A program made the position numbers and the translations under genes. The notes below the pieces were generated by a model, which saw only the letters and a program-made list of their open reading frames with translations, made no database searches and was not told the DNA's origin. Positions 14,503 through 42,670 of a stretch of 42,670 nucleotides of DNA are shown here, piece after piece. Numbering within the stretch: the first letter of the stretch is position 1; the number at the start of each line of letters is the position of its first letter. The DNA comes from Oligoflexales bacterium (lineage in GTDB: Bacteria > Bdellovibrionota_B > Oligoflexia > Oligoflexales > RGVZ01), in assembly GCA_044236265.1 (NCBI GenBank), contig JBIIGV010000010.1:1-42670 (forward strand). The letters run 5' to 3'.

Positions 14503-14573
14503 AATTTGGGGACACACGACCAAACCCAAATCAAACCGTAGGCAATTCGGGTTTGGTCGTGTGTCCCCAAATT
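14503..14573. repeat. Perfect 25-bp inverted repeat (REP/MITE-like hairpin)
   Basis: AATTTGGGGACACACGACCAAACCC (14503-14527) and its exact reverse complement (14549-14573), with a 21-nt spacer. Confidence 0.9.
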
Positions 14574-14651
14574 ATTAATAAAATAGGGTTTATTTTAATT
14601 GATTTTAAAGGTGGGGTTTGATAACTAGCGCCCCATAGGCGGAGACCTTTT

Positions 14652-31728: not shown

Positions 31729-32484
31729 TTATCGCTTACCCTGGCTTTGCTCACTCAGGATTTGCTCGATTTGCAGACCAGTCAGGGTTTTTAAACCTCT
31801 GATGAGCATCCAAACCGCAACCATCATGACGATCATACTTGGCAACACGATGACCGGGTAACTCAGGGCTGTCATGCGCCCGAGCTCGGCATTGAATTCT
31901 GGCGTTCCCGCTGGTGACTTCAAGATCCAAATAGCTAGAACAAAGTTCAAAATTGCGGAAATCACAAACGAGATGGCTAACACCAGTGTTGTCTTGAACA
32001 TTAACTTGGAAAAGCCATCGCGCGTCCCCTGAGCATCCAAAGCGGCCTCGACTCGCGGGATATTAATCACGCGGTCATTGTATAAAATAAGTTTCACCAG
32101 AGGTTTTGACGTTTTCATCGATCCAAGAGTCACGAGGGCAATGATCCCGGGAATTGAGGCTTCTTTAGCCGCAAACCAAACACCGTCCACCTGCAAAAGA
32201 CCAAGGCCTCCGGTCAATAAAATGCTCACAAATCCAAGGATCGAAATGAAATTGTGGTGTCTGGTGGTGAAAAACTCCCAAGCACCGTAAATCACAGGCA
32301 AACTTAACGCGATCAGCATCGCCACCACTGGCCCAAGCTTATCTGGAGATGAAAATTTGTTCAAAATGACAGCAGGAAACACAATATTCACCACGAGGTT
32401 CAAGATGGCATTTGGGTTTTTATGCTGAACCTGACCCTCGACAGGACGTCCTGTCTGGTTTGCGGCTGAATTTGGTGTGGACAT
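31729..32484 (-). CDS. VC0807-family membrane protein
   Basis: NIVFPAVILNKFS..LG, NFISILGFVSILLTGGLGL, AAKEASIPG, FNAELGRMTALSYPVI; six or seven hydrophobic segments. Start taken at ATG 32484. Confidence 0.85.
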   Translation of the reverse strand: MSTPNSAANQTGRPVEGQVQHKNPNAILNLVVNIVFPAVILNKFSSPDKLGPVVAMLIALSLPVIYGAWEFFTTRHHNFISILGFVSILLTGGLGLLQVDGVWFAAKEASIPGIIALVTLGSMKTSKPLVKLILYNDRVINIPRVEAALDAQGTRDGFSKLMFKTTLVLAISFVISAILNFVLAIWILKSPAGTPEFNAELGRMTALSYPVIVLPSMIVMMVAVWMLIRGLKTLTGLQIEQILSEQSQGKR

Positions 32485-32573
32485 GCGTGGCTCCATCGGT
32501 TTGAATGACGATTCTATGCCAGTTCGGCATAAAACATCAACCCGTCGAAACTGAAATGACAGGAGTACGACCC

Positions 32574-32768
32574 ATGGCAACTAAAGCTGCAAAAAAAGTC
32601 AAAGAAGCATTCAAAGTCGTTAAGAAGCGTAATGGACGTTGGTCCGTTAAGGGCAGCAACGGCAAGTTTATCAACGGCGAAGAAAAGGTCAAAATCCTTG
32701 TCGGCAAGGGTTTGGTCAAAGTTCTTAAGAAGAAAGAGGGCGCAGCCCCAGCTCCAGCCGCCGAGTAA
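32574..32768 (+). CDS. Small basic hypothetical protein
   Basis: RBS AGGAG; 64-aa Lys-rich ORF (KKRNGRWSVK..INGEEKVKIL..GL); followed by a strong hairpin. Confidence 0.75.
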   Translation: MATKAAKKVKEAFKVVKKRNGRWSVKGSNGKFINGEEKVKILVGKGLVKVLKKKEGAAPAPAAE

Positions 32769-32781
32769 ATTAAGCTTCACC

Positions 32782-32814
32782 GGGGAGTGCGGGCCTCAAG
32801 TGCCTGCACTCCCT
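32782..32814 (+). terminator. GC-rich hairpin (terminator or mRNA stabiliser)
   Basis: GGGGAGTGCGGGC/GCCTGCACTCCCT stem; weak T tract. Confidence 0.45.
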
Positions 32815-32833
32815 GACTAATGTTTGCTGGTCC

Positions 32834-35350
32834 ATGTCAAAATCCCTCATCATTGCTGAAAAACCTTCGGTCGCTCGCGACATCGTCGCCGCCTTGGGTG
32901 GATTTTCCACCATGGGTCAAACTCCTCAGGGAGTTACCGTTTGGGAATCTCAAGACTACGTCTGCTGTCACGCCCTCGGGCATCTGGTCGAGCTCTATGA
33001 GCCCGAGGATTATAACGCCACATACAAATCATGGCGTCTTGCTGATCTACCCATTGTGCCCGACTCCTTTCTTTTAAAACCCAAAGCAGAGACCGCACAG
33101 CTACTGCGCGTCATCAAGCAGCAACTCAATCGACCTGACATCACCGAAATCATCAACGCATGTGATGCGGCGCGGGAAGGTGAGTTGATATTTCGTGAAA
33201 TTATCCAAAACAGCCTTTGTAACAAACCGCAAACACGGGTGTGGCTACAGAGTTTGACTGCAGAATCCATACGCGGCGCATTTGCCGCAAGAAAATCGGC
33301 TCACGAGTTTAGTGGGCTTGCTAATGCAGCCCATGGGCGCTCTCAGGCTGACTGGCTTATGGGCATGAACTTATCGCGAGCTGCCACCCTAAAGCTCGCA
33401 CGGGCCAGCGACGGTGGAGTTTGGAGCATCGGCCGTGTGCAAACGCCGACCTTGGCGATGCTAGCAGAGCGCGAGTTTGCGATTTTGACTCATGATCCGA
33501 GGCCATTTGAATCGGTCACAGCGTCCTTCGTGGCACCAGACCATGAATACGAAGGTAAGTGGATTGCCTCTGAGTTGAAGGGTGCTGAAAACATGGCTCA
33601 TGAGCGCGGGCGCATTTTTTCCCCTGAGCTCTCCCGCAATCTGATGGCAAAATTAACACCAGGCATCGCAGCGCACGCAACCGAGACGCGTAAATCACGT
33701 GAGATGAAAGCACCGCCACTTTTTTCTTTAACGGCCTTACAGCGTCATATGTCGAATCGCTATCAGTGGACTGCAAAACAAACTTTGGATGTAGCGCAGA
33801 AGTGTTACGAGACACATAAAGTCATCACATATCCACGTACCGAATCTGACGCCTTGCCCGAGGATTACCGGGACAAAGTGCGCACAATTTTTGAAAAACT
33901 AAAATCAATTTCAGCATACAAAGAACTTGCTGAAAGACTTGTTACAAGTCCGTGGAATAATGAAAGCTCAGTTTTTGATGACAAAGCTGTAAGTGATCAC
34001 TTTGCCATCATACCGACTGGAAATTTTCCGGCGTCATTACCCAGCCAAGAGGGTTTATTGTTTGATGCCATCATTCGTCGCTTGCTTGCATCACTCATGC
34101 CACCAGCCATCATTGATCAGGTGGAGCGGCGCACGATCGCTGCCGGAGAGACCTTTCTCACTGGTCCTGAGGAGTTCGTCCGAGTTCCAGGCTGGCAAGA
34201 GGCAACGACAGATACAAATGCGCGTCGCAAGAAAGATTTGACTTTAAAACCACTGGTAGGTGATGCACCCATCAAACTGCTTAAAACAAAATTGAGCAAA
34301 GACGAAACCAAGCCGCCCCCTCGTCTCGGTGAGGCGCAGCTACTAACGTTGATGGAGCATGCAGGTCGGCATGTAAGTGATCCAGAAATGGCGCGCGTCT
34401 TGCGCGAAACCGGTGGACTCGGCACCGCTGCCACCCGCGCTGAGATTATCGAAAATTTGAAAAGCAAAGATTATGTTTACGACAACTTGCAGCCTACGAC
34501 CAAGGGACTGCATCTCATTCGCTTTCTAAAACTCGCGCGTGCTGAGCATCTAACATCACCGCAATTAACAGCTGAGCTTGAACAGCATTTGCGTATGGTG
34601 GAAGAGGCCTCGCGCACAAGAGATTCTTTTATTCAGGAAACCGCACGCTCAGTCGACACCTCTCTGAAGGCTATCACAGCATTTGATCTTGAAAAAAGTT
34701 TTGATCATGCGCCGTCGCTTGGAAACTGTCCTCGCTGCCGTGCCACAGTGCACGAGCGGATGTGGAATTATACTTGCGCTAGCAATCGTGGTACGGACGG
34801 TGGCTGCGGCTGGACTTTACCCAAGGACTGTGATGGTCGTTGGCTTGATCCTCAGTCTGTGAGCCGCCTACTCGGTGCAAATGCTGACGGCATCACCCTC
34901 GGTGGATTTCCTGTAGCCGGCAAATCATCACCTGGGCCTAAAAGAGTGTTAAAGATTAATGACGGTAGTCTGGAAATTCTCGATGAATCTGGACGTGAGC
35001 TTAACGGAAACTTTCACACTTCGGAATCCAAATCTTCCACGCGTCGCCGTGTGACATGGGGGTCGTGTCCGATTCACAAGGCCGATGGATGTCTTATTGT
35101 TGAGACAAAAAATGCGTTCATGTGTGAAACGAAGCTACGTCACCTGAAAGAGGGACGCCCCGAGGCACCTGGATTTCAACTACCAAAAGCCATCTGCGAA
35201 CAGCGGCTGAAATTCGAAGACATCAATTCATTCATCACCACCGGACGCACACGATTGATCGAAGGCTTCAAATCTCGCGGCGGGAAAGTATTTGATGCAC
35301 GGGTCGTCCGTAACCCTGCTGGATCTTGGACCTTTGAGTTCAAAAGCTAA
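32834..35350 (+). CDS. topB: DNA topoisomerase III (type IA) with C-terminal repeats
   Basis: IIAEKPSVARDI, GHL, NACDAAREGELIF, GMNLSRA, GRVQTPTL, ITYPRT (catalytic Tyr), DHFAIIPT, GLGTAATRAEIIE, C-terminal GFKSRGGKVFDA. Confidence 0.93.
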   Translation: MSKSLIIAEKPSVARDIVAALGGFSTMGQTPQGVTVWESQDYVCCHALGHLVELYEPEDYNATYKSWRLADLPIVPDSFLLKPKAETAQLLRVIKQQLNRPDITEIINACDAAREGELIFREIIQNSLCNKPQTRVWLQSLTAESIRGAFAARKSAHEFSGLANAAHGRSQADWLMGMNLSRAATLKLARASDGGVWSIGRVQTPTLAMLAEREFAILTHDPRPFESVTASFVAPDHEYEGKWIASELKGAENMAHERGRIFSPELSRNLMAKLTPGIAAHATETRKSREMKAPPLFSLTALQRHMSNRYQWTAKQTLDVAQKCYETHKVITYPRTESDALPEDYRDKVRTIFEKLKSISAYKELAERLVTSPWNNESSVFDDKAVSDHFAIIPTGNFPASLPSQEGLLFDAIIRRLLASLMPPAIIDQVERRTIAAGETFLTGPEEFVRVPGWQEATTDTNARRKKDLTLKPLVGDAPIKLLKTKLSKDETKPPPRLGEAQLLTLMEHAGRHVSDPEMARVLRETGGLGTAATRAEIIENLKSKDYVYDNLQPTTKGLHLIRFLKLARAEHLTSPQLTAELEQHLRMVEEASRTRDSFIQETARSVDTSLKAITAFDLEKSFDHAPSLGNCPRCRATVHERMWNYTCASNRGTDGGCGWTLPKDCDGRWLDPQSVSRLLGANADGITLGGFPVAGKSSPGPKRVLKINDGSLEILDESGRELNGNFHTSESKSSTRRRVTWGSCPIHKADGCLIVETKNAFMCETKLRHLKEGRPEAPGFQLPKAICEQRLKFEDINSFITTGRTRLIEGFKSRGGKVFDARVVRNPAGSWTFEFKS

Positions 35351-35393
35351 CGATTAGAATCGTGGTTCGGAACTTCAAATCTGACAACCAGAT

Positions 35394-35438
35394 TCAACCT
35401 AGAGCCGTATCCAAAATCATCATCACAATAAAACCGAT
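35394..35438 (-). pseudogene. Orphan 3' tail of a ZIP transporter gene
   Basis: Encodes IGFIVMMILDTALG*. The intact gene ends VGFIMMMILDTALG* (40724-40768); 25 nt are identical (35401-35425 = 40731-40755). Confidence 0.85.
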
Positions 35439-35567
35439 TACTCACCGATGAACGCAAATTTTGGACTATCGCCGGTTCTACCTAAAGTGCCTTGCAAAGG
35501 AAAAAAAGATCGTCAGGCTGAAAAAGTTTACAAGGCTTGGCAGTCATTTCAGCTGTGGCACAGGTAA
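35439..35567 (+). pseudogene. trmFO: Orphan 3' tail of a trmFO (gid)-like gene
   Basis: Encodes YSPMNANFGLSPVLPKVPCKGKKDRQAEKVYKAWQSFQLWHR*, matching the TrmFO C-terminal motif PMNxNFGLxP...KKxR. Confidence 0.7.
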
Positions 35568-35718
35568 CATCAGGTGCCTGCCTGAGCTAGACTCGTCCCC
35601 ACCGCGTAAGGGCACTGGATGTAGCGATCCAGAATAGCCAAACATCTGAAATTGCAATTTTTTTTCAGGCATGGGACAATGCCACTGTATTTAGTCGAAA
35701 TTCCGCGGAGCTGCCCCG

Positions 35719-36858
35719 ATGTACCCGAGATTTATTCAAATACCTGAAATTATTAAAACAAAGAGCCTTTTTCTAGTTGGGCCTCGAATGACAGGGAAAA
35801 GCACTCTTTTGAGGGAGGCATTACCTAAGGCTTTATATCTTGACCTTTTGGACGCTGACCTTTTCAGGCGCCTCAGCGCACGACCTGACTACCTTCGCGA
35901 ATTAGTTAAGGATCAGCAAAAAATCGTCGTCATTGACGAAGTACAAAAACTTCCCGAGATTTTGGATGAAGTGCAAAGACTCATTGATTCAAACAGGGAG
36001 TTGCGATTTGCGTTAACCGGAAGTAGCGCTAGAAAGCTAAAACGCGGAGCAGCGAACCTGCTAGGCGGGAGAGCCCTTTTCTTAAATCTTCATCCACTCG
36101 TTAGTGCGGAGCTTGGCCATGGCTCGCGAATTCTAGACCGTCTTAATCGTGGAAGTCTTCCCGCACTGATTGATAGTGAATATTACGAAAGAGAACTTAG
36201 CGCATACGTTGGTGTTTATTTACGTGAAGAAATTCAGGCAGAAGGTTTAACACGATCGATTGGAAATTTCGGTCGCGTTCTAGAAACAGCTGCCCTATGT
36301 AACGGACAACAGGTGAATTTCACACAAATTGGAAATGATGCGCAGGTTCCGCCAAGAACCGTTTCTGATTACTTTCAATTGTTTGAGGACACACTCATTG
36401 GATCCGTCTTGCCGTCATTTAGGGGAACAAAGTCTCGAAAGGCAGTAGCCACGCCAAAATTTTATTTTTTTGACACGGGCGTGGCCCGTGTATTAAGCCG
36501 CACGGGACAAATCCAATTGGGTTCGAAAGCATTTGGCGACGCCCTCGAACACTTGATTTTTCTCGAGCTTAAGGCTTACGTTGACTATACATTTTCGAAC
36601 GCAAGACTCTCTTACTGGCGAAGCGAGTCTCAGCTCGAGGTCGATTTTGTCATCGATGACAAAATCGCGATTGAGGTAAAAGGCACTAACACCGTCACCA
36701 CTTCTCACCTCAAAGGTTTGAAAGCACTAGGTGAGGATTTTCCTCACATGGAGAAATTCCTGGTGGCTATGGAACCCCAACCGCGCAACATTGATGGAAT
36801 TACCATTATTCATGTTGATGCTTTTCTAAAAAAACTTTGGAATGGGGAAATATTTTAG
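35719..36858 (+). CDS. AAA_14/DUF4143 ATPase with C-terminal nuclease-like motif
   Basis: GPRMTGKST, IDEVQK, LTGSSARKL, PKFYFFDTG, YWR...EVDFV...IEVK. Confidence 0.9.
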   Translation: MYPRFIQIPEIIKTKSLFLVGPRMTGKSTLLREALPKALYLDLLDADLFRRLSARPDYLRELVKDQQKIVVIDEVQKLPEILDEVQRLIDSNRELRFALTGSSARKLKRGAANLLGGRALFLNLHPLVSAELGHGSRILDRLNRGSLPALIDSEYYERELSAYVGVYLREEIQAEGLTRSIGNFGRVLETAALCNGQQVNFTQIGNDAQVPPRTVSDYFQLFEDTLIGSVLPSFRGTKSRKAVATPKFYFFDTGVARVLSRTGQIQLGSKAFGDALEHLIFLELKAYVDYTFSNARLSYWRSESQLEVDFVIDDKIAIEVKGTNTVTTSHLKGLKALGEDFPHMEKFLVAMEPQPRNIDGITIIHVDAFLKKLWNGEIF

Positions 36859-36941
36859 GAGCGGAATCGCAAATAGGCGCAAGATTCTGGTTGGAGACGC
36901 ATTTTATTTGTCACATAAGGAATTAATATGCGGAAATACCT

Positions 36942-37787
36942 ATGATGCCGAAGAAAAATAGATTCATTTTAGTGATCACCGATTCGCTTGGTGTAAATCG
37001 CGCTTTCATTACTTGCGACTTGAGGCACATCACCCTTGAAGACGCAATTCTTCTCGTTGAAAATGGCACCTTGGGTGGCTACCGCCTGATCAAGAAAAGA
37101 GATCGCATTTTTCTACGGAGCAAGGTCGATTCATCTTCGACCAACAACCTAGAAGAAATTTCTATATCTGCAAGAAAACTTTCACAAAAGATTAAGGAAC
37201 CAAATACAAGCCCAAAAGTGTCTTTGTACGCGGTCACGTATGGGAAATATTTGGAGCTGAAGAGCGATCGATCCGATCTAATCTATCTTGACGGGATTGC
37301 AAGAATTGCAAAAAGTACCGTTATCAATCGACTACGTCCATTAAAGGAAGAAATTATTTCCGCAGCCAATAAGCAAAACATTGAGCCCATGGTCCTTACT
37401 GGAATTTTAATCGACGAAATCGCCAGGATGGGCCCAGATGACTTGCTGGACATAATTGGTAAAATTGGACTACGTGACACAACCGTCGGACTTGCTCAGA
37501 TCAAAATGTCTACTGCAAGAGATCTTATTAAGAAAAATTATTTATTATTCGATAAAAATATATCTAACGAAAAACTATTCGATCTTCTAAACAATGATGT
37601 AATTGCAATCCAATTTGCTGCGGCCTATTTGAGTTTTATTTATAAATACAGAGCAATGAAAAACAGGGGTACCACGCCTCCAGAGATTTGCTCGAGCTAC
37701 TCTTCTGGTTTAGCGGCCTCAATTAGTTCGAGAGGACGTCAAATAGCCGATGACTTAGCCAGAATCGCAAGCGAGGTTTTGAAGTGA
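36942..37787 (+). CDS. DUF3892-like N-terminus plus lysozyme/transglycosylase-like C-terminus
   Basis: AILLVENG...FLRSKVDSSSTNNLEEI; IISAANKQNIEPMVLTGILIDE...TVGLAQIK...IQFAAAYL; visibly AT-rich. Confidence 0.65.
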   Translation: MMPKKNRFILVITDSLGVNRAFITCDLRHITLEDAILLVENGTLGGYRLIKKRDRIFLRSKVDSSSTNNLEEISISARKLSQKIKEPNTSPKVSLYAVTYGKYLELKSDRSDLIYLDGIARIAKSTVINRLRPLKEEIISAANKQNIEPMVLTGILIDEIARMGPDDLLDIIGKIGLRDTTVGLAQIKMSTARDLIKKNYLLFDKNISNEKLFDLLNNDVIAIQFAAAYLSFIYKYRAMKNRGTTPPEICSSYSSGLAASISSRGRQIADDLARIASEVLK

Positions 37788-38320
37788 GCAAATATTCAAA
37801 AGCATTTACGATTTCATTTTTATCACTTTGCGCATCTTTGCTCGTGGTTGGATTTAAGGCAATTGCCAGGCACCAGGAGGTTAACAGGTTTTTTCGCGAA
37901 ACCGATGACCTGGAATGGGCTCACCAGTATTTGGATAAGGTTATTAATTTTTGCGATGCACCCTGGGAACCTTCACAAGAACAAATCGACTCAAATAGCC
38001 ATATTTTCAAATCTCCTAGCGGCAATCTACATATTAGAAAATACGTTAACGCGTCATTTGAACAATCATTTGAATTGCTCGGGTCACAAAGTAACAGGCT
38101 GTTGCTTGATTTTACTTTTAATTGGGACCCCAAAGGGGCAAGTATTTCTATCAATGACTTCAAATGGGCCAAGGCTGAGCGCTTTTTAATCTTTCGAAAA
38201 CCCATTACGATGGACGACGACTGGGGCACATCAAAAATTTATATTTATAATATTACCAGTGGTGACCTAATATATTTGGGTGACTCTGAATTTTATGATT
38301 GCACAACACGCTCGTGGTAG
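37784..38320 (+). CDS. Membrane-anchored/secreted hypothetical protein, translationally coupled to the upstream gene
   Basis: GTGA start/stop overlap; N-terminal hydrophobic helix; AT-rich. Confidence 0.7.
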   Translation: MSKYSKAFTISFLSLCASLLVVGFKAIARHQEVNRFFRETDDLEWAHQYLDKVINFCDAPWEPSQEQIDSNSHIFKSPSGNLHIRKYVNASFEQSFELLGSQSNRLLLDFTFNWDPKGASISINDFKWAKAERFLIFRKPITMDDDWGTSKIYIYNITSGDLIYLGDSEFYDCTTRSW

Positions 38321-38365
38321 ACTCACCGCCATTTGATTACATGAAATCTGCCTGTCATATCAGCG

Positions 38366-38625
38366 TTACCGAACGATAGCGCAGGAGCATATACCCCAGT
38401 GCTGGCCGCGGTAATAAAGACCGGCTTTTGACGTCCCTTCCTAAGTCATGCCGATTTTTTTCATGACTTTGGCAAAATATTTTCTACCTTAGATCGACCT
38501 TGAATTCGCTTAGAACCAAACGTCTTAAAACAGTATTCCAAAACCTTGGTGCAAGCTGCTGCGGCTATGCCTTTGTTCCAGTGCTTTTCATCAAAATCGC
38601 AAGCCAGCTCCATGCTGTCAATATC
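38366..38625 (-). pseudogene. 3' half of a RimJ/RimL-type GNAT acetyltransferase gene, decayed
   Basis: ELACDFDEKHWNKGIAAAACTKVLEYCF..RIQG..EN, then a frameshift near 38470 to KVMKKIGMT*EGT..YYRGQHW..AIVR*; 5' half missing. Confidence 0.7.
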
Positions 38626-38681
38626 CTCAAGGACACTTGCCACACATGATGCATCGACATAGCTCTTCTTTGGAAATAAAA

Positions 38682-38897
38682 CTACGTCACCTGAAAGAGG
38701 GACGCCCCGAGGCGCCAGGATTCTAGTTACCAAAATCTATTTGTGAAAAGCAGCTAAAATTCGAAGACATCAATTCATTCATCACTACCGGTCGCACACG
38801 ATTAATCGAAGGCTTCAAATCTCGCGGCGGGAAAATATTTGATGCACGGGTCGTCCGTAACCCTGCTGGATCTTGGACCTTTGAGTTCAAAAGCTGA
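38682..38897 (+). repeat. Diverged direct copy of the topB 3' end (35135-35350)
   Basis: Ungapped 216-nt alignment with 18 mismatches by hand count, mostly silent; nonsense TAG at 38724-38726; ends exactly at the stop codon. Confidence 0.95.
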
Positions 38898-38992
38898 TTT
38901 TGAACCGACTATAACCCTTTAAATTTATTGTTATTTTAAAATTCTGTGAAAGCTTGACCTTAAACTTCCGACACGAAAATGGGGGGGCAGTC

Positions 38993-40702
38993 ATGGCTAA
39001 CATCAGATACGTTAACAGGATAATCTCGCTTTGCTTTGTCGCTTCACTGGTAGCGTCTTGTGGTTCTAAATCAAAGCAATCAGCAAACAATCAAAGCATA
39101 CAAACCGCCCAGAAGCCCTCATTCTCACTAGCTCCAGGTGAGTACTTAGAAAACCAAAGACTTGAGCTAAAAAGTAATTTACCGGCCGCTCAAATCTTTT
39201 TTACTACTGATGGCTCTGAGCCTTCCGCTCAATCAAACGTTTACTCCGAGCCGTTAGAACTGAGTGGCGGCACCACAGTTAAAATGTTCGCCCGTGCCCA
39301 AGGTCTGAATGACTCTGAGGTTGTAACAGGGACGTTCAATGTGAGGTCGATGCTTAAAAATATGCGGTTATTTTTACCGACTCACTATAACCATTCAGTC
39401 GCACAAGCGTCTGACGGCACAGTTTATTTCCCTGAGTATGGAAAAAAACGCTTAATGCGACAAAGCCCATCAGGCGTCCTTGAGGCTATTTATACAGAGC
39501 AAGGAGGGATGCTTACGGTATTTGTGGACCCACAAGACAGACTCTATGTCAGTCTCGATATGGGAGACACGAAAGACGCAAACGGCCGTTTCATCGGTTC
39601 CGTTGTTCGGGTTGATAATGGAGCAAATGGGACCAAAGTTCTAACTCCGGTGATAAAGTTTGTAAGGCGGCCAAGGCAAATGGCTTGGGACGGTGTTAAG
39701 CTCTATGTCCAATTGGAAGCCGAGCGGATGATTATTTCTTGTGATGTTGATCAAGGCGCCTGCGAGTACCCTGACACCGTCGCAACGCAAACTAATGCCA
39801 AAAAAGCGATCATCGAGGTGGATAACCGCTCCGTTGTTCCACCCCCTAATGGGATGACCTTTCGTAACGGAACATTCTACTGGGCGGAGTACGGCATTTT
39901 CCAACAGCGAGCTGACGGCTCCAAGTGGGTCGAAATGGGACGAATTCGCAGCAAATCACCAGGTCAACCAGCTGTCACTCTCAAAGACGGTTTAGGACGC
40001 ACACGTGGAGTTGGTTTTGACACTGCTGGTAATCTTTACTTTACCACTGAAGCAAATGAGAAAGATCAAGGAAACACCGGCACACTGGCGCGTCTTTTGC
40101 CAGACTCTACTGGAAAAATATCAGCCAACAGTAAATACGAGCTTCTACTCGACAAAGTTGATTATCCTCAATTCATCAAAGTTCTCCACAATGGCGAGGT
40201 TTTGGTGCCTCTGGCGCGTGAGAACTGGATGGGGCTTTACGACCCTAAACTGAAAATGGAAAAACAGGCCGTATCAGAATCCTTTATCGAGATGTATGCC
40301 CAGAATCTTACAGTTACATCTGGAGACTCTGCAGCAAAACTACTGTCCTTTAATTTCCCGGAGTTTGGTAAGAAGTTCGACTACTTAATCAACACCCAAG
40401 ATCCCGGATTGAAAACCGGATGGCTCAAGATAAACATCAAGGGTTTAAATCTCCCGGAGGACTTATTCAAAAAGTACGTAAACTATCCTCCATTTCCATC
40501 GCCACTCATTCCTGGGCCTGGTTTTTATAGAATTCCAAGTGCGACCTGTGAATTTGACGCAAAGCCTTGCAGCATGCGCGGCATCGTTTACAGGACACAA
40601 GTGCTTTGGCGATGGCCGATGTTTTACCCGAACGGCGTGGAGACTCCGGCCGATGGGTTCAGTGAGGATCCAGATCACTTTTTATTTAACTTCAACTTGT
40701 GA
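38993..40702 (+). CDS. Lipoprotein with chitobiase-C/Fn3-associated domain and beta-propeller
   Basis: Lipobox LVAS-C; PSFSLAPGEY...IFFTTDGSEP...YSEPL..TTVKMFA; propeller blades DGTVYF, DRLYVS, GTFYWAE, GVGFDTAGNLYF. Confidence 0.82.
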   Translation: MANIRYVNRIISLCFVASLVASCGSKSKQSANNQSIQTAQKPSFSLAPGEYLENQRLELKSNLPAAQIFFTTDGSEPSAQSNVYSEPLELSGGTTVKMFARAQGLNDSEVVTGTFNVRSMLKNMRLFLPTHYNHSVAQASDGTVYFPEYGKKRLMRQSPSGVLEAIYTEQGGMLTVFVDPQDRLYVSLDMGDTKDANGRFIGSVVRVDNGANGTKVLTPVIKFVRRPRQMAWDGVKLYVQLEAERMIISCDVDQGACEYPDTVATQTNAKKAIIEVDNRSVVPPPNGMTFRNGTFYWAEYGIFQQRADGSKWVEMGRIRSKSPGQPAVTLKDGLGRTRGVGFDTAGNLYFTTEANEKDQGNTGTLARLLPDSTGKISANSKYELLLDKVDYPQFIKVLHNGEVLVPLARENWMGLYDPKLKMEKQAVSESFIEMYAQNLTVTSGDSAAKLLSFNFPEFGKKFDYLINTQDPGLKTGWLKINIKGLNLPEDLFKKYVNYPPFPSPLIPGPGFYRIPSATCEFDAKPCSMRGIVYRTQVLWRWPMFYPNGVETPADGFSEDPDHFLFNFNL

Positions 40703-40723
40703 CTTGGTTCCCCTGGGTTGAAA

Positions 40724-41647
40724 TTATCCCAGAGCCGTATCCAAAATCATCATCATGATAAATCCCACCATCAAGCCGATGGTGGCGAATGTTTGATGGC
40801 CATTGCGATGTGTCTCTGGAATAACCTCATGAGATACCACAAAAATCATGGCACCAGCAGAAATGCCCATAGCCATGGGGTAAGCAAACGGAAGACCACC
40901 CGCTAAAAACACACCGAGCAATGCCCCAAGCGGTTCAAGAGCTCCCGTCATTGCCGCAATCAAAACGGCCTTCCAAGCCTGTTTCACAACACCGCGCAGC
41001 GCAAGGGCGACAGCAAGTCCTTCTGGAACATCTTGAATAGCAATCGCGGTACTGACTGGCAAACCAACAGCCATGTCCCCTTTTGAAAAACTGACACCAA
41101 AAGCCATGCCCTCGGGCAGATTGTGTAATGCAATTGCAAATACAAAAAGCATCATGCCACCGTATGCTTGATGCCCTGGTCCAAAACTTCCGGCGTTCTG
41201 ATGATTGTGCGGCGTAAAAGCTTCAAGGCCAAGCATCAGAAAAACACCGATGATCATCCCTGCGACCACCAGCAAACTACCATAGACCTTCGAGCTATAA
41301 ATCAGAGTACCAGCATCCATACCGGGTATGATCAACGAAAACGAACTAGCTGCCAGCATCATTCCAGCAGCAAAGCCGAGCATACTGTCTTCAACCTTGG
41401 CGGGAACCGCTCGAATGAATAGGGCAGGGAGGGCACCGATGGCTGTAGCTGCAAACCCACCCCACCCACCCCCAAAACCCAAACGCACCGGGGTTTTAAA
41501 TACATAAGTCGGCATTCCGGCCAGATTCTGTGACAGAATCACAGTGACGGTTACCAAAGCGGCAAATAGACCAAGACTCATCCATGGTCGCCTGAGAGCG
41601 TGATGGAATGCTTCTTTGATCCATTTTTGGGACTCAACACGATTCAT
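40724..41647 (-). CDS. ZIP-family (GufA/ZupT-like) metal transporter
   Basis: LGFAAGMMLAASSFSLI, His loop PHNH, IALHNLPEGMA, AIAIQDVPEG, GAMIFVVSHEVIPE. Confidence 0.93.
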   Translation of the reverse strand: MNRVESQKWIKEAFHHALRRPWMSLGLFAALVTVTVILSQNLAGMPTYVFKTPVRLGFGGGWGGFAATAIGALPALFIRAVPAKVEDSMLGFAAGMMLAASSFSLIIPGMDAGTLIYSSKVYGSLLVVAGMIIGVFLMLGLEAFTPHNHQNAGSFGPGHQAYGGMMLFVFAIALHNLPEGMAFGVSFSKGDMAVGLPVSTAIAIQDVPEGLAVALALRGVVKQAWKAVLIAAMTGALEPLGALLGVFLAGGLPFAYPMAMGISAGAMIFVVSHEVIPETHRNGHQTFATIGLMVGFIMMMILDTALG

Positions 41648-41886
41648 AAGTTTTTGCGCCAGATCAAATCCATATCTTTAATGTTAAACGATTTAATCCT
41701 TTGGGGACACTCGACGGTGTTCTAATTCGGCTAAAACCTGGCCATGGGACCGCAGCGGGTTTTATTTTAATATGCTGATAATATTACGTAAATTTAGCTA
41801 GGGCCAAGGCCTAGAAAACAAGCTGAATGCCTCTCTAAAGTCACACCGAAAAACGACCGAACCTCGATTATATATAGGGGGTTAGG

Positions 41887-42670
41887 GTGAAGCCCTGGAT
41901 ACTTTCAATCCGGATGTCACTTACGGTGGCGTTGCTACTTGCGATGACCATGTCCTGTGGTGTTCCCTCAACCTCAGTTGAAGTCAAAATGACAGCTGGT
42001 GCTGGCGTCGCAAATTGTGACTCGACGGGAAAGTGCGTCAAAGACCCAAAAGGTCTTGTCGTCTACAACACCGATCTCATCACCCAAAACAAGATCATGA
42101 AGCGTCCACAGAATGAGACGTTTCTGACGCGCATGATAAATCTTGTTGATGAACCCAAGCTTCTTGTCACTTCGGAAAAAATTCAAGATCTAATACGTGG
42201 AGTTGCACTTGTCGGTGAGTTTGAGCCGTGTGAGTCCCCCAATGCGATCGAGGGAGCAAACCCAACGGCAGGTCAACTACGGTCTCTAAATCAAGGCAGA
42301 TATCGAGCTTGCGTGGCCTACGTAGGCGAGGGGATGATCAAGAAAGCTTACTCACTTGATGCGATTGACGTGGATACGACACCGCCTGAGGTAACCAAAG
42401 GGCTAAATGCTTCAAATGAAACACCAAATTCAGCGCAATTTTTGTGGTCAAAGGCGGGAGATAATCTAACGCTTGAGGGGGAGATCACTTACAAGGTCTT
42501 TACGTCCAAAACACATAATCTAGACTCGCTGGAAGCCGTTCAATCATTCGGAAATCAGGCACCGGGAAGAATAGTCGGTGGAAATTCATTTACAATCAAC
42601 TATTTGACATCTAGCTCCTTGTATTATGCAGCCGTCGTTGCCACGGATGAGGCCGGCAATGCGTCCCTTG
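41887..42670 (+). CDS. Lipoprotein with fibronectin type III domain (runs off the window end)
   Basis: Manually translated frame open from GTG 41887 to the end: ...LLLAMTMS-CG..., DTTPPEV...WSKAGDN...YKVF...YYAAVVATDEAGNAS. Confidence 0.78.
   Translation, partial: MKPWILSIRMSLTVALLLAMTMSCGVPSTSVEVKMTAGAGVANCDSTGKCVKDPKGLVVYNTDLITQNKIMKRPQNETFLTRMINLVDEPKLLVTSEKIQDLIRGVALVGEFEPCESPNAIEGANPTAGQLRSLNQGRYRACVAYVGEGMIKKAYSLDAIDVDTTPPEVTKGLNASNETPNSAQFLWSKAGDNLTLEGEITYKVFTSKTHNLDSLEAVQSFGNQAPGRIVGGNSFTINYLTSSSLYYAAVVATDEAGNASL

What the first reader, a model, noticed from the sequence alone, without database searches (positions are those of the whole stretch)
35135..40768. Integrase-free cargo slot bounded by back-to-back orphan 3' tails of four genes
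Seen in sequence, the order is topB> , <ZIP tail | trmFO-like tail> , cargo 1 (ATPase, lysozyme-like gene, partner) , <GNAT tail | topB tail> , cargo 2 (propeller lipoprotein) , <intact ZIP. Every remnant is a 3' end that keeps its stop codon and lacks its 5' part. Each cargo block is therefore framed by a pair of convergent gene ends. No integrase, transposase or tRNA att site lies in the window. Inference: accessory modules travel together with the tails of the convergent genes that flanked them and re-enter by recombination in those tails, so the resident core genes stay intact. This would be a gene-tail-guided cassette shuffling route, possibly fed by natural transformation or by a recombinase acting in trans.
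Basis: partly seen in the sequence, partly recalled or inferred. Interest (0 to 1): 0.82.

Follow-up and report, generated by a model that had tools for sequence, protein, structure and literature searches.

The report
Cargo inserted between duplicated gene ends
A lake bacterium carries foreign genes wedged between two different copies of the spot where two genes end tail to tail, and the leftover gene ends record where the cargo came from; it looks like the scar of ordinary recombination accidents of a known kind rather than a dedicated shuffling machine.

Summary
The four orphan 3' ends are real: topB 91%, ZIP 89%, trmFO 76% and GNAT 68% identical to intact genes in this genome. A missed 62-bp IS91-type fragment sits between two of them. 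All four diverged mainly at synonymous sites, so they were working alleles elsewhere. An independent run bridges the left joint. The same layout recurs at two more sites in this genome, in congener G004 and, with the same lysozyme-like pair, in another family (G027). GNAT and trmFO are direct convergent neighbours in congener G008, which points to the origin of cargo 1. Against a dedicated shuffling route: no shared motif or palindrome at 14-16 breakpoints, joints of 2-4 nt microhomology, topB/ZIP/GNAT not core, and a related strain losing the tails by plain deletion; no tail-to-tail joint in 4 runs. Best reading (0.6): insertion with long target duplication by one homologous crossover plus an illegitimate join, probably via natural transformation, stacked over time. 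It works like the restriction-gene insertions of Furuta 2010 but lacks R-M genes. This scan noted the layout before in other genomes. New variant of a known kind; interest 0.38.

The parts
32834..35350 (+). Intact topoisomerase III (topB-like); its last 225 nt are the left copy of the duplicated junction
   Evidence: Pfam Topoisom_bac, Toprim, Toprim_Crpt; NCBIfam best match DNA topoisomerase III, below the curated cut-offs
35351..35393 (.). 43-nt spacer of the cargo-free topB><ZIP allele; no clear likeness to the flanks of cargo 2
35394..35435 (-). Orphan ZIP 3' end (13 codons plus TGA), another allele than the intact gene
   Evidence: 89% over 38 nt; 4 synonymous and 1 non-synonymous change; longest perfect match 25 nt
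35436..35567 (+). Orphan trmFO 3' end from an unsampled related species; joint 1 at 35435/35436
   Evidence: 76% nt to C196 and 70-78% to congeners; 20.5 synonymous vs 13.5 non-synonymous changes; joint bridged in run X8
35719..36858 (+). AAA_14 + DUF4143 ATPase (COG1373; PADLOC candidate family PDC-S01); multi-copy, mobile family
   Evidence: 1-50 matches per genome in 20 of 21 family genomes, 84% orthologue in a tRNA-Asp island of G001
36930..37787 (+). Lysozyme-fold (SLT/Tse3-like muramidase) gene, probably an antibacterial enzyme (inferred)
   Evidence: Pfam SLT E=0.0019, below cut-off; atlas structure rows with Tse3_cat and SLT, TM 0.5-0.65; 10 of 94 order genomes, 0 of 12 congeners
37784..38320 (+). 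Partner gene, probably its immunity protein (inferred from linkage)
   Evidence: directly downstream in 10 of 10 other loci examined
38366..38614 (-). Orphan 3' end of a two-domain GNAT acetyltransferase, with a frameshift and an internal TAG
   Evidence: 68% nt to C167; synonymous excess in both parts
38613..38676 (-).
   Evidence: 90% to C186:6524-6585, 82% to C201:2564-2620; C201 Y2_Tnp; intact relative in G002 with Zn_Tnp_IS91 and Y2_Tnp
38673..38897 (+). Orphan topB 3' end (74 codons plus TGA, internal TAG); start of the right copy of the junction
   Evidence: 91% over 223 nt; 13.5 synonymous vs 6.5 non-synonymous changes, dN/dS 0.13, binomial p=1.5e-5; 60-nt perfect match
38954..40702 (+). 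Cargo 2: lipoprotein with a CHB_HEX_C/Fn3 domain and a probable NHL/SGL-type propeller
   Evidence: Pfam; atlas leads under 0.9; found in 1 of 94 order genomes, this one
40724..41647 (-). Intact ZIP zinc transporter; its last 42 nt close the right copy of the junction
   Evidence: Pfam Zip; neighbour of topB in G012

Best explanation
[quoted passage not shown] Shown: two alleles of the topB><ZIP junction stand in tandem (left empty, right filled with cargo 2), and a 3.2-kb block (35436-38672) taken from a trmFO><GNAT-type slot of another species lies between them. Inferred: incoming DNA, most likely from natural transformation, recombined homologously through one flanking gene and was joined at its other end by a 2-4-nt microhomology (homology-facilitated illegitimate recombination), or it entered as an end-joined circle by one crossover. 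Either way the intact gene takes the donor's end and its own end is left as an orphan beside the donor's broken end, which gives back-to-back tails. At least two such rounds are needed, because the foreign block has its own joints. Tails prevail because accessory genes collect at convergent junctions, where both genes stay whole and the leftovers have no promoter. The tails then decay or are deleted; the 60-nt perfect topB match could still allow loss of cargo 1.
For: Tails diverged as working genes, not by decay after a local duplication. No shared motif at 14 native and 16 orphan breakpoints (5 to 32 of 40 random sets scored as high in the six tests) and no palindromy above the null. Overlaps of 2 nt and 4 nt at the two right joints and an inferred 3-4 nt at the left joint. 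Same layout A><B-tail | insert | A-tail><B at C145 and C195/C39 of this genome, at G004:C12, whose insert carries a topB tail, and at mraY><clpA of G027 with the same muramidase pair. Empty single-copy GST><transporter allele in G012 for the C145 site. Orphan pieces genome-wide: 12 tails to 1-2 heads, p=0.002-0.006; 5 of 7 local duplications at convergent junctions against 455 of 2515 gene pairs, p=0.003 (hand-filtered, see full report). ComEC and DprA present, Ku not found. Precedents: PMC2853133, PMC5361080.
Against: The trmFO...GNAT block has no homologous anchor at this locus, so its arrival needs a second illegitimate join or prior capture on another element. The same cargo families sit at tRNA-type sites elsewhere (G001, G023, G031), which shows that integrase routes carry them too. 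PMC5361080 calls this kind of recombination several orders of magnitude rarer than plain homologous recombination. A 400-kb sample of G001 held no junction duplication. Microhomologies are read from relatives, not the true parents. No single-copy empty topB><ZIP allele was found.
Confidence: 0.6

Rival explanations
1. Relics of integrase-driven islands. A tyrosine or large serine recombinase, since lost or acting in trans, put an island into gene 3' ends; imprecise excision at earlier sites captured the trmFO, GNAT and topB tails.
For: The 84% ATPase orthologue and a deleted copy of this GNAT lie between a tRNA-Asp and a 42-bp copy of its 3' end in G001. The muramidase pair lies at tRNA-type sites in G023 and G031, the latter near a Xer-like gene. 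G000 holds a 580-aa protein with a resolvase domain (C86), a small resolvase (C21) and one Xer-like recombinase (C69). C189 has a tail plus tRNA duplication.
Against: No common core, motif or inverted arms. Duplicated stretches range from about 40 to 530 bp. The topB and ZIP repeats overlap instead of nesting, and the topB tail lies in its native position relative to ZIP, which an island would reproduce only by coincidence.
Confidence: 0.2
2. One reading: tails are reusable anchors. Cargo excises as circles between tail copies and re-enters, also at other slots, so the tails guide shuffling.
For: Recurrent layout across the order. A 60-nt perfect topB match and a 25-nt ZIP match could support crossover. 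In run X15 the topB 3' stretch differs at 39 of 772 sites while the start of cargo 1 differs at 1 of 311, which fits allele exchange beside the cargo. The H47 island excises between imperfect 148-bp repeats without its own recombinase.
Against: trmFO and GNAT tails match the resident genes over only 8-10 nt perfectly. No tail-to-tail joint in 4 of 20 holding runs; the strain in X15 deleted 35408-35578 and 37511-40131, cutting through tails and both cargo blocks. An orphan trmFO tail occurs in 1 of 21 family genomes. The tails carry stops and a frameshift.
Confidence: 0.11
3. Capture by a rolling-circle or other HUH transposase (IS91/ISCR-like, or the REP-associated transposase), which picks up flanking DNA and ends inside the next gene.
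For: IS91-type fragments lie beside tails in the window and at C39; the gene next to the IS91 remnant on C201 has an orphan tail at C108. A RAYT-like gene and hairpin repeat families exist; two other tails start next to such hairpins.
Against: The window fragment is from the middle of the transposase gene, not an end of the element. No hairpin repeat of these families lies in 32000-42670. The G000 copy is broken. One-ended capture does not by itself duplicate the target junction.
Confidence: 0.06
4. Assembly chimera of two strains in a metagenome-assembled genome.
For: MAG of 234 contigs. The window differs from three runs at 14 sites within 41463-41506, so it may hold local errors. The joints at 38613 and 38673 are not bridged by a listed piece.
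Against: Joint 1 is bridged without a difference in another study, the orphan topB allele is joined to cargo 2 in a second, and a diverged strain keeps topB, cargo 1 and ZIP linked. Six runs of six studies hold half or more of the sampled words; one may be the source. Copies at 68-91% with stops are not assembler repeats.
Confidence: 0.03

Closest known systems
Insertion with long target duplication (restriction-modification genes; Furuta, Abe and Kobayashi 2010, PMC2853133; passages and section 15 read, supplements not read)
   Same: Small insert without a mobility gene between long, variable, imperfect direct repeats (46-423 bp there); repeats often span a start or stop codon and leave the target gene intact; many cases in naturally competent species.
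   Different: No R or M gene here (the ATPase has a PD-(D/E)XK-type DUF4143 domain of unknown role). The copies are alleles that diverged under selection. One copy is split by a second cargo. The insert carries tails from another slot and species.
Displaced 3' ends by homology-facilitated illegitimate recombination in T6SS and Rhs arrays (Kirchberger et al. 2017, PMC5361080; passages read)
   Same: The conserved 5' part of a gene acts as anchor, the new module enters, the old 3' end is pushed downstream; repeated rounds stack remnants.
   Different: There the displaced parts include immunity genes kept for use within one toxin locus; here they are silent ends of housekeeping-type genes from several loci.
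Integrase-free hotspots and minimal mobile elements (Oliveira et al. 2017, PMC5635113; Bentley et al. 2007, PMC1797815; passages read)
   Same: Alternative cargo at one syntenic slot, no mobility gene, exchange through the flanking genes; the trmFO-tpi and topB-ZIP slots behave so.
   Different: Double crossover in the flanks leaves no duplicated tails and does not move cargo between slots; the flanks here are mostly accessory.
H47 genomic island of E. coli (PMC3191183, PMC5426353; passages read)
   Same: Long imperfect direct repeats, no recombinase gene, excision possible at stretches of identity.
   Different: Excision was detected there by PCR; nothing like it was seen here. The passages read do not describe its repeats as gene tails.
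Integrase islands that target gene 3' ends and supply a replacement end (tRNA, icd, dusA types; recalled, not from a call)
   Same: An intact gene plus a displaced 3' fragment at the far side of the cargo.
   Different: No integrase, no fixed core, both convergent tails duplicated, repeats overlapping.

Membership tests
Insertion with long target duplication (Furuta 2010 criteria) | Insert holds both R and M gene homologues | tested here: not met
   Cargo is an AAA_14/DUF4143 ATPase, a muramidase-like gene and a partner; no methylase domain
Insertion with long target duplication (Furuta 2010 criteria) | Insert under 20 kb | tested here: met
   35436-38672, 3237 bp
Insertion with long target duplication (Furuta 2010 criteria) | Target duplication over 30 bp | tested here: met
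   223 bp (topB) plus 38-42 bp (ZIP)
Insertion with long target duplication (Furuta 2010 criteria) | No other mobile element in the insert | tested here: met
   No intact mobility gene; only a 62-bp transposase fragment
Insertion with long target duplication (Furuta 2010 criteria) | Single-copy empty site in another genome | tested here: inconclusive
   Not found for topB><ZIP (G012 has other cargo; 4 runs); found for the sister site GST><transporter in G012
Homology-facilitated illegitimate recombination | One homologous anchor and one joint with short microhomology | tested here: inconclusive
   Layout fits; overlaps of 2-4 nt inferred from relatives, true parents unknown
Homology-facilitated illegitimate recombination | DNA uptake machinery in the host | tested here: met
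   ComEC and DprA over the cut-off; also found in 10 of 14 control genomes, so weak evidence
Homology-facilitated illegitimate recombination | Event seen in transformation, RecA-dependent | not testable with these tools
   No culture or assay available here
Integrase-driven island in a gene 3' end | Integrase in or beside the element | tested here: not met
   None among the window proteins scanned; recombinases lie on other contigs
Integrase-driven island in a gene 3' end | Shared att core or inverted binding arms at the crossover | tested here: not met
   Motif and palindrome scores within the null
Minimal mobile element / double-crossover hotspot | Alternative cargo between the same flanking genes | tested here: met
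   G012 topB-ZIP; trmFO-tpi across congeners
Minimal mobile element / double-crossover hotspot | Flanks are conserved core genes and are not duplicated | tested here: not met
   topB 5 of 12, ZIP 5 of 12 congeners; both ends duplicated
H47-type recombinase-free island | Excision to a circle between the repeats | tested here: inconclusive
   No such joint in contigs of 4 runs; contigs drop rare variants
IS91/ISCR rolling-circle capture | Element end (oriIS or terIS) at the cargo border | tested here: not met
   The fragment maps inside the transposase gene, not to the element end shared by C186 and C201

The most novel reading that the evidence does not exclude
In this order, tail-to-tail junctions act as a recombinase-free address system: cargo leaves as circles that carry the ends of several genes, so one circle can dock by host recombination at any slot whose tail it bears, and each passage adds another address. 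That would be a general route by which new genes first enter, and hop between, hotspots that lack mobile elements.
Probability: 0.12. Interest if true: 0.75.

Novelty: new variant of a known kind. Interest (0 to 1): 0.38.

Why it matters
Double crossover in flanking genes explains how cargo is swapped at integrase-free hotspots (PMC5635113), but not how a gene first enters a slot or moves to another. Orphan tails are a readable record of those rare entries: here they trace a cargo block to a trmFO><GNAT junction of another species. The 12-to-1 excess of tails over heads in one genome, and the recurrence across the order, suggest a simple screen that could measure this route in any pangenome. 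It also extends 'insertion with long target duplication' beyond restriction genes to a candidate defence ATPase and an enzyme-immunity pair.

Tried and rejected
Shared att motif or palindromes at the breakpoints: none. Integron reading: the ~75-bp hairpins elsewhere in the genome first looked like attC sites, but they fold as long near-perfect stems that pair beyond the would-be core, the only tyrosine recombinase found is Xer-like, and none lies in this region. Local duplication followed by decay: rejected by the synonymous excess, although later allele replacement of the intact copy could give the same signal for topB and ZIP. Metagenome scans: no relative of the topB C-terminus, only three 36-39% ZIPs. 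Genome-contig scan: one congener locus already held. Viral scan with the muramidase: none. Rfam: 0 matches in 9 sources. Promoter scan: 10 sites against 8.6 expected; terminator-like sites 14 against 6.8, not interpreted. G004 self-search for the source of its second cargo end: nothing significant. 400 kb of G001: no junction duplication. Uncovered stretches in run X15 and X19 are not read as absence. The scan's notes held no look-alike of this DNA. No fold or complex prediction was run, because the claim does not rest on one.
Full report
Observation. The window is the whole contig C121 of a 3.25-Mb genome in 234 contigs; earlier notes call the organism a freshwater Oligoflexales bacterium (not tested here). 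A blastn of 32001-42670 against the genome found the four tails and one more piece. topB 35126-35348 recurs at 38673-38895 (91%). The ZIP end 40728-40765 recurs at 35398-35435 (89%). 35436-35549 matches the end of trmFO on C196 (76%). 38424-38614 matches the end of a two-domain GNAT on C167 (68%). 38613-38674 matches the inside of an IS91-family transposase gene (90% to C186). Identities of the intact genes come from Pfam and NCBIfam. Each tail ends at a stop in the native place; the topB tail has an internal TAG and the GNAT tail a TAG and a frameshift.

Not an artefact. Twenty runs of 20 studies hold part of 34600-41700, six of them half or more; one may be the source. I laid 4 of the 20. 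Run X8 bridges the topB end, ZIP tail and trmFO tail without a difference. Run X2 links the orphan topB allele to cargo 2. The joints at 38613 and 38673 are not bridged in the pieces shown; 63 pieces were not shown. Run X15 holds a diverged strain with the same order but two deletions, 35408-35578 and 37511-40131, with 1 and 2 nt of overlap. They remove most of the tails and cut both cargo blocks. No joint from tail to tail appeared in any of the four runs; contigs drop rare variants.

Origin of the tails. All four differ from the intact genes mainly at synonymous sites (topB 13.5 vs 6.5, p=1.5e-5; ZIP 4 vs 1; trmFO 20.5 vs 13.5; GNAT 23.8 vs 22.2 and 20.5 vs 19.5, p under 1e-4). They evolved as working genes before they were orphaned. 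The trmFO tail is 70-78% identical to every congener fetched, so its donor is unsampled. In G008 the GNAT orthologue and trmFO end 13 bp apart, tail to tail. The trmFO-tpi junction holds different genes in G000, G001, G002, G003, G005, G006 and G008 and is empty in G011 and G012. So cargo 1 with its two tails is best read as a piece of that slot. A genome with the block intact between trmFO and GNAT was not found. For topB and ZIP the same signal could also arise if the intact copies were replaced later by other alleles.

Relatives. Full topB of this type was found in 5 of 12 congeners, this ZIP in 5 of 12, both together and convergent only in G012, which has another AAA_14/DUF4143 ATPase (23% identical) between them and no tail repeats. 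A close GNAT orthologue occurs in 2 of 12; trmFO in 12 of 12. These genomes are 66-95% complete. The ATPase family has 1-50 matches per genome in 20 of 21 family genomes and matches the PADLOC candidate family PDC-S01. Its 84% orthologue in G001 lies with a deleted GNAT between a tRNA-Asp and a 42-bp copy of the tRNA end. The muramidase-like gene occurs in 10 of 94 order genomes and is followed by the partner in 10 of 10 other loci; G052 and G057 have ATPase, muramidase and partner in a row. Cargo 2 was found only here.

Recurrence of the layout. G004:C12 reads W> <phr tail | cargo> <topB tail | W tail> <phr; no full topB of this type was found in that 95% complete genome. In this genome C145 reads GST> <transporter tail | cargo | GST tail> <transporter tail (contig end), and C195/C39 reads transporter> <GST tail | photolyase | transporter tail> <GST tail, IS91 fragment. 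G012 has the single empty GST><transporter junction. In another family, G027 reads mraY> | muramidase pair | BrnA-type pair | mraY tail (98 bp, 95%)> <clpA. G007 shows a like nesting around a related ATPase. A genome-wide tblastn screen gave 20 rows; 17 were not flagged as transposases: 15 tails, 1 head, 1 internal. I dropped three tail rows (two hits to a repeat-domain protein, one at the same place as the internal row). Of the 12 left, one is a piece of the C86 recombinase gene and one is weak (55%). A second head duplication shows at DNA level on C143. 12 to 1 gives p=0.002 and 12 to 2 p=0.006. Among local duplications I classed 7 as gene-end events after leaving out paralogue pairs, hairpin repeats, transposase ends, a tRNA pair, a 53-bp intergenic repeat and a contig-end repeat; 5 are at convergent junctions, against 455 of 2515 adjacent pairs (p=0.003). 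These counts are hand-filtered and the sites are not fully independent. A 400-kb sample of G001 had none.

Joints. Breakpoints of 14 intact genes and 16 orphan ends share no motif and are no more palindromic than random gene positions. Overlaps are 2 nt (GNAT/IS), 4 nt (IS/topB) and an inferred 3-4 nt (ZIP/trmFO). Perfect matches with the resident genes are 60, 25, 8 and 10 nt for topB, ZIP, trmFO and GNAT. The genome has ComEC and DprA, no Ku match, one Xer-like recombinase, two resolvase-domain genes, a broken IS91 transposase and a RAYT-like gene; it is 89% complete.

Mechanism. Shown: tandem alleles of one convergent junction with foreign DNA between them. Inferred: one homologous crossover in a flanking gene plus a microhomology join, or one crossover of an end-joined circle. 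One such event yields an intact gene, its displaced tail and the donor's broken end back to back. The foreign block needs at least one earlier event, which may have been on an integrase island. I give this 0.6, lost or trans-acting recombinase 0.2, an active tail-guided route 0.11, HUH capture 0.06, chimera 0.03.

Comparison. The closest class is insertion with long target duplication (PMC2853133; passages and section 15): small inserts without mobility genes, repeats of 46-423 bp that often span start or stop codons and leave the gene intact. Its R-M criterion is not met, so this works like that class but is not filed in it. Displaced 3' ends are described for T6SS and Rhs arrays (PMC5361080, passages). 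Integrase-free hotspots and minimal mobile elements (PMC5635113, PMC1797815, passages) cover cargo exchange but not tails. The H47 island (PMC3191183, PMC5426353, passages) shows excision between imperfect repeats without a recombinase. DUF4143 is listed as a PD-(D/E)XK family of unknown function (PMC3424549, one passage). Nine searches listed no paper on stacked tails from several loci at convergent junctions; the library lacks most subscription papers and no supplement was read. This scan noted the duplicated-junction layout before in other genomes; those notes are unchecked and gave me the two paper leads.

Verdict. A sound observation, a partly right reading, and a new variant of a known kind. 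The value lies in the provenance record and in a testable genome-wide bias. Interest 0.38.

Noticed in passing
window 41463-41506: Inside the ZIP gene the window differs from three independent runs at the same 14 sites; the other runs' version resembles the G012 protein more. Either a local assembly error or a short foreign patch; not an inversion.
   Followed up: partly
G000 C145:39581-39661, C108:5467-5545, C143:37615-37700, C207:1788-1863, C67:802/2555/4125, C64:9948, C199:6318: A family of about 75-bp near-perfect hairpins (REPIN- or MITE-like), three of them spaced 1.6-1.8 kb apart on C67; two lie just before duplicated tails. No Rfam match.
   Followed up: partly
window 14503-14576 and C88:3962-4808: A second hairpin family, with one copy in the window, matches the flank of a RAYT-like Y1 transposase gene.
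   Followed up: no
window 35719-36858 and relatives: The AAA_14/DUF4143 (COG1373, PDC-S01) family ranges from 1 to 50 matches per genome within one bacterial family, often between direct repeats; it behaves like a mobile or selfish gene.
   Followed up: partly
window 36930-38320: The muramidase-like gene and its partner are linked in every locus seen, and the enzyme gene is broken in several (G022, G030, G031, G052, G057) while the partner ORF stays open, as expected of an enzyme-immunity pair.
   Followed up: partly
L055 (G000:C186):6186-6677: A shrunken IS91 derivative made of the element end, an internal piece and an inverted copy of the end; its internal piece stops within 3 nt of the window fragment's breakpoint.
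   Followed up: partly
L123 (G001:C10):5380-7856: A 2.4-kb tRNA-Asp island without an integrase ORF; the GNAT in it has lost residues 107-260 and its stop codon abuts the duplicated tRNA end.
   Followed up: yes
window 36642-36667: A perfect 26-bp palindrome inside the ATPase gene.
   Followed up: no
G000 C178:19222-19347 and C181:2592-2800: Orphan pieces of the 3' part of the 580-aa serine-recombinase gene of C86.
   Followed up: no
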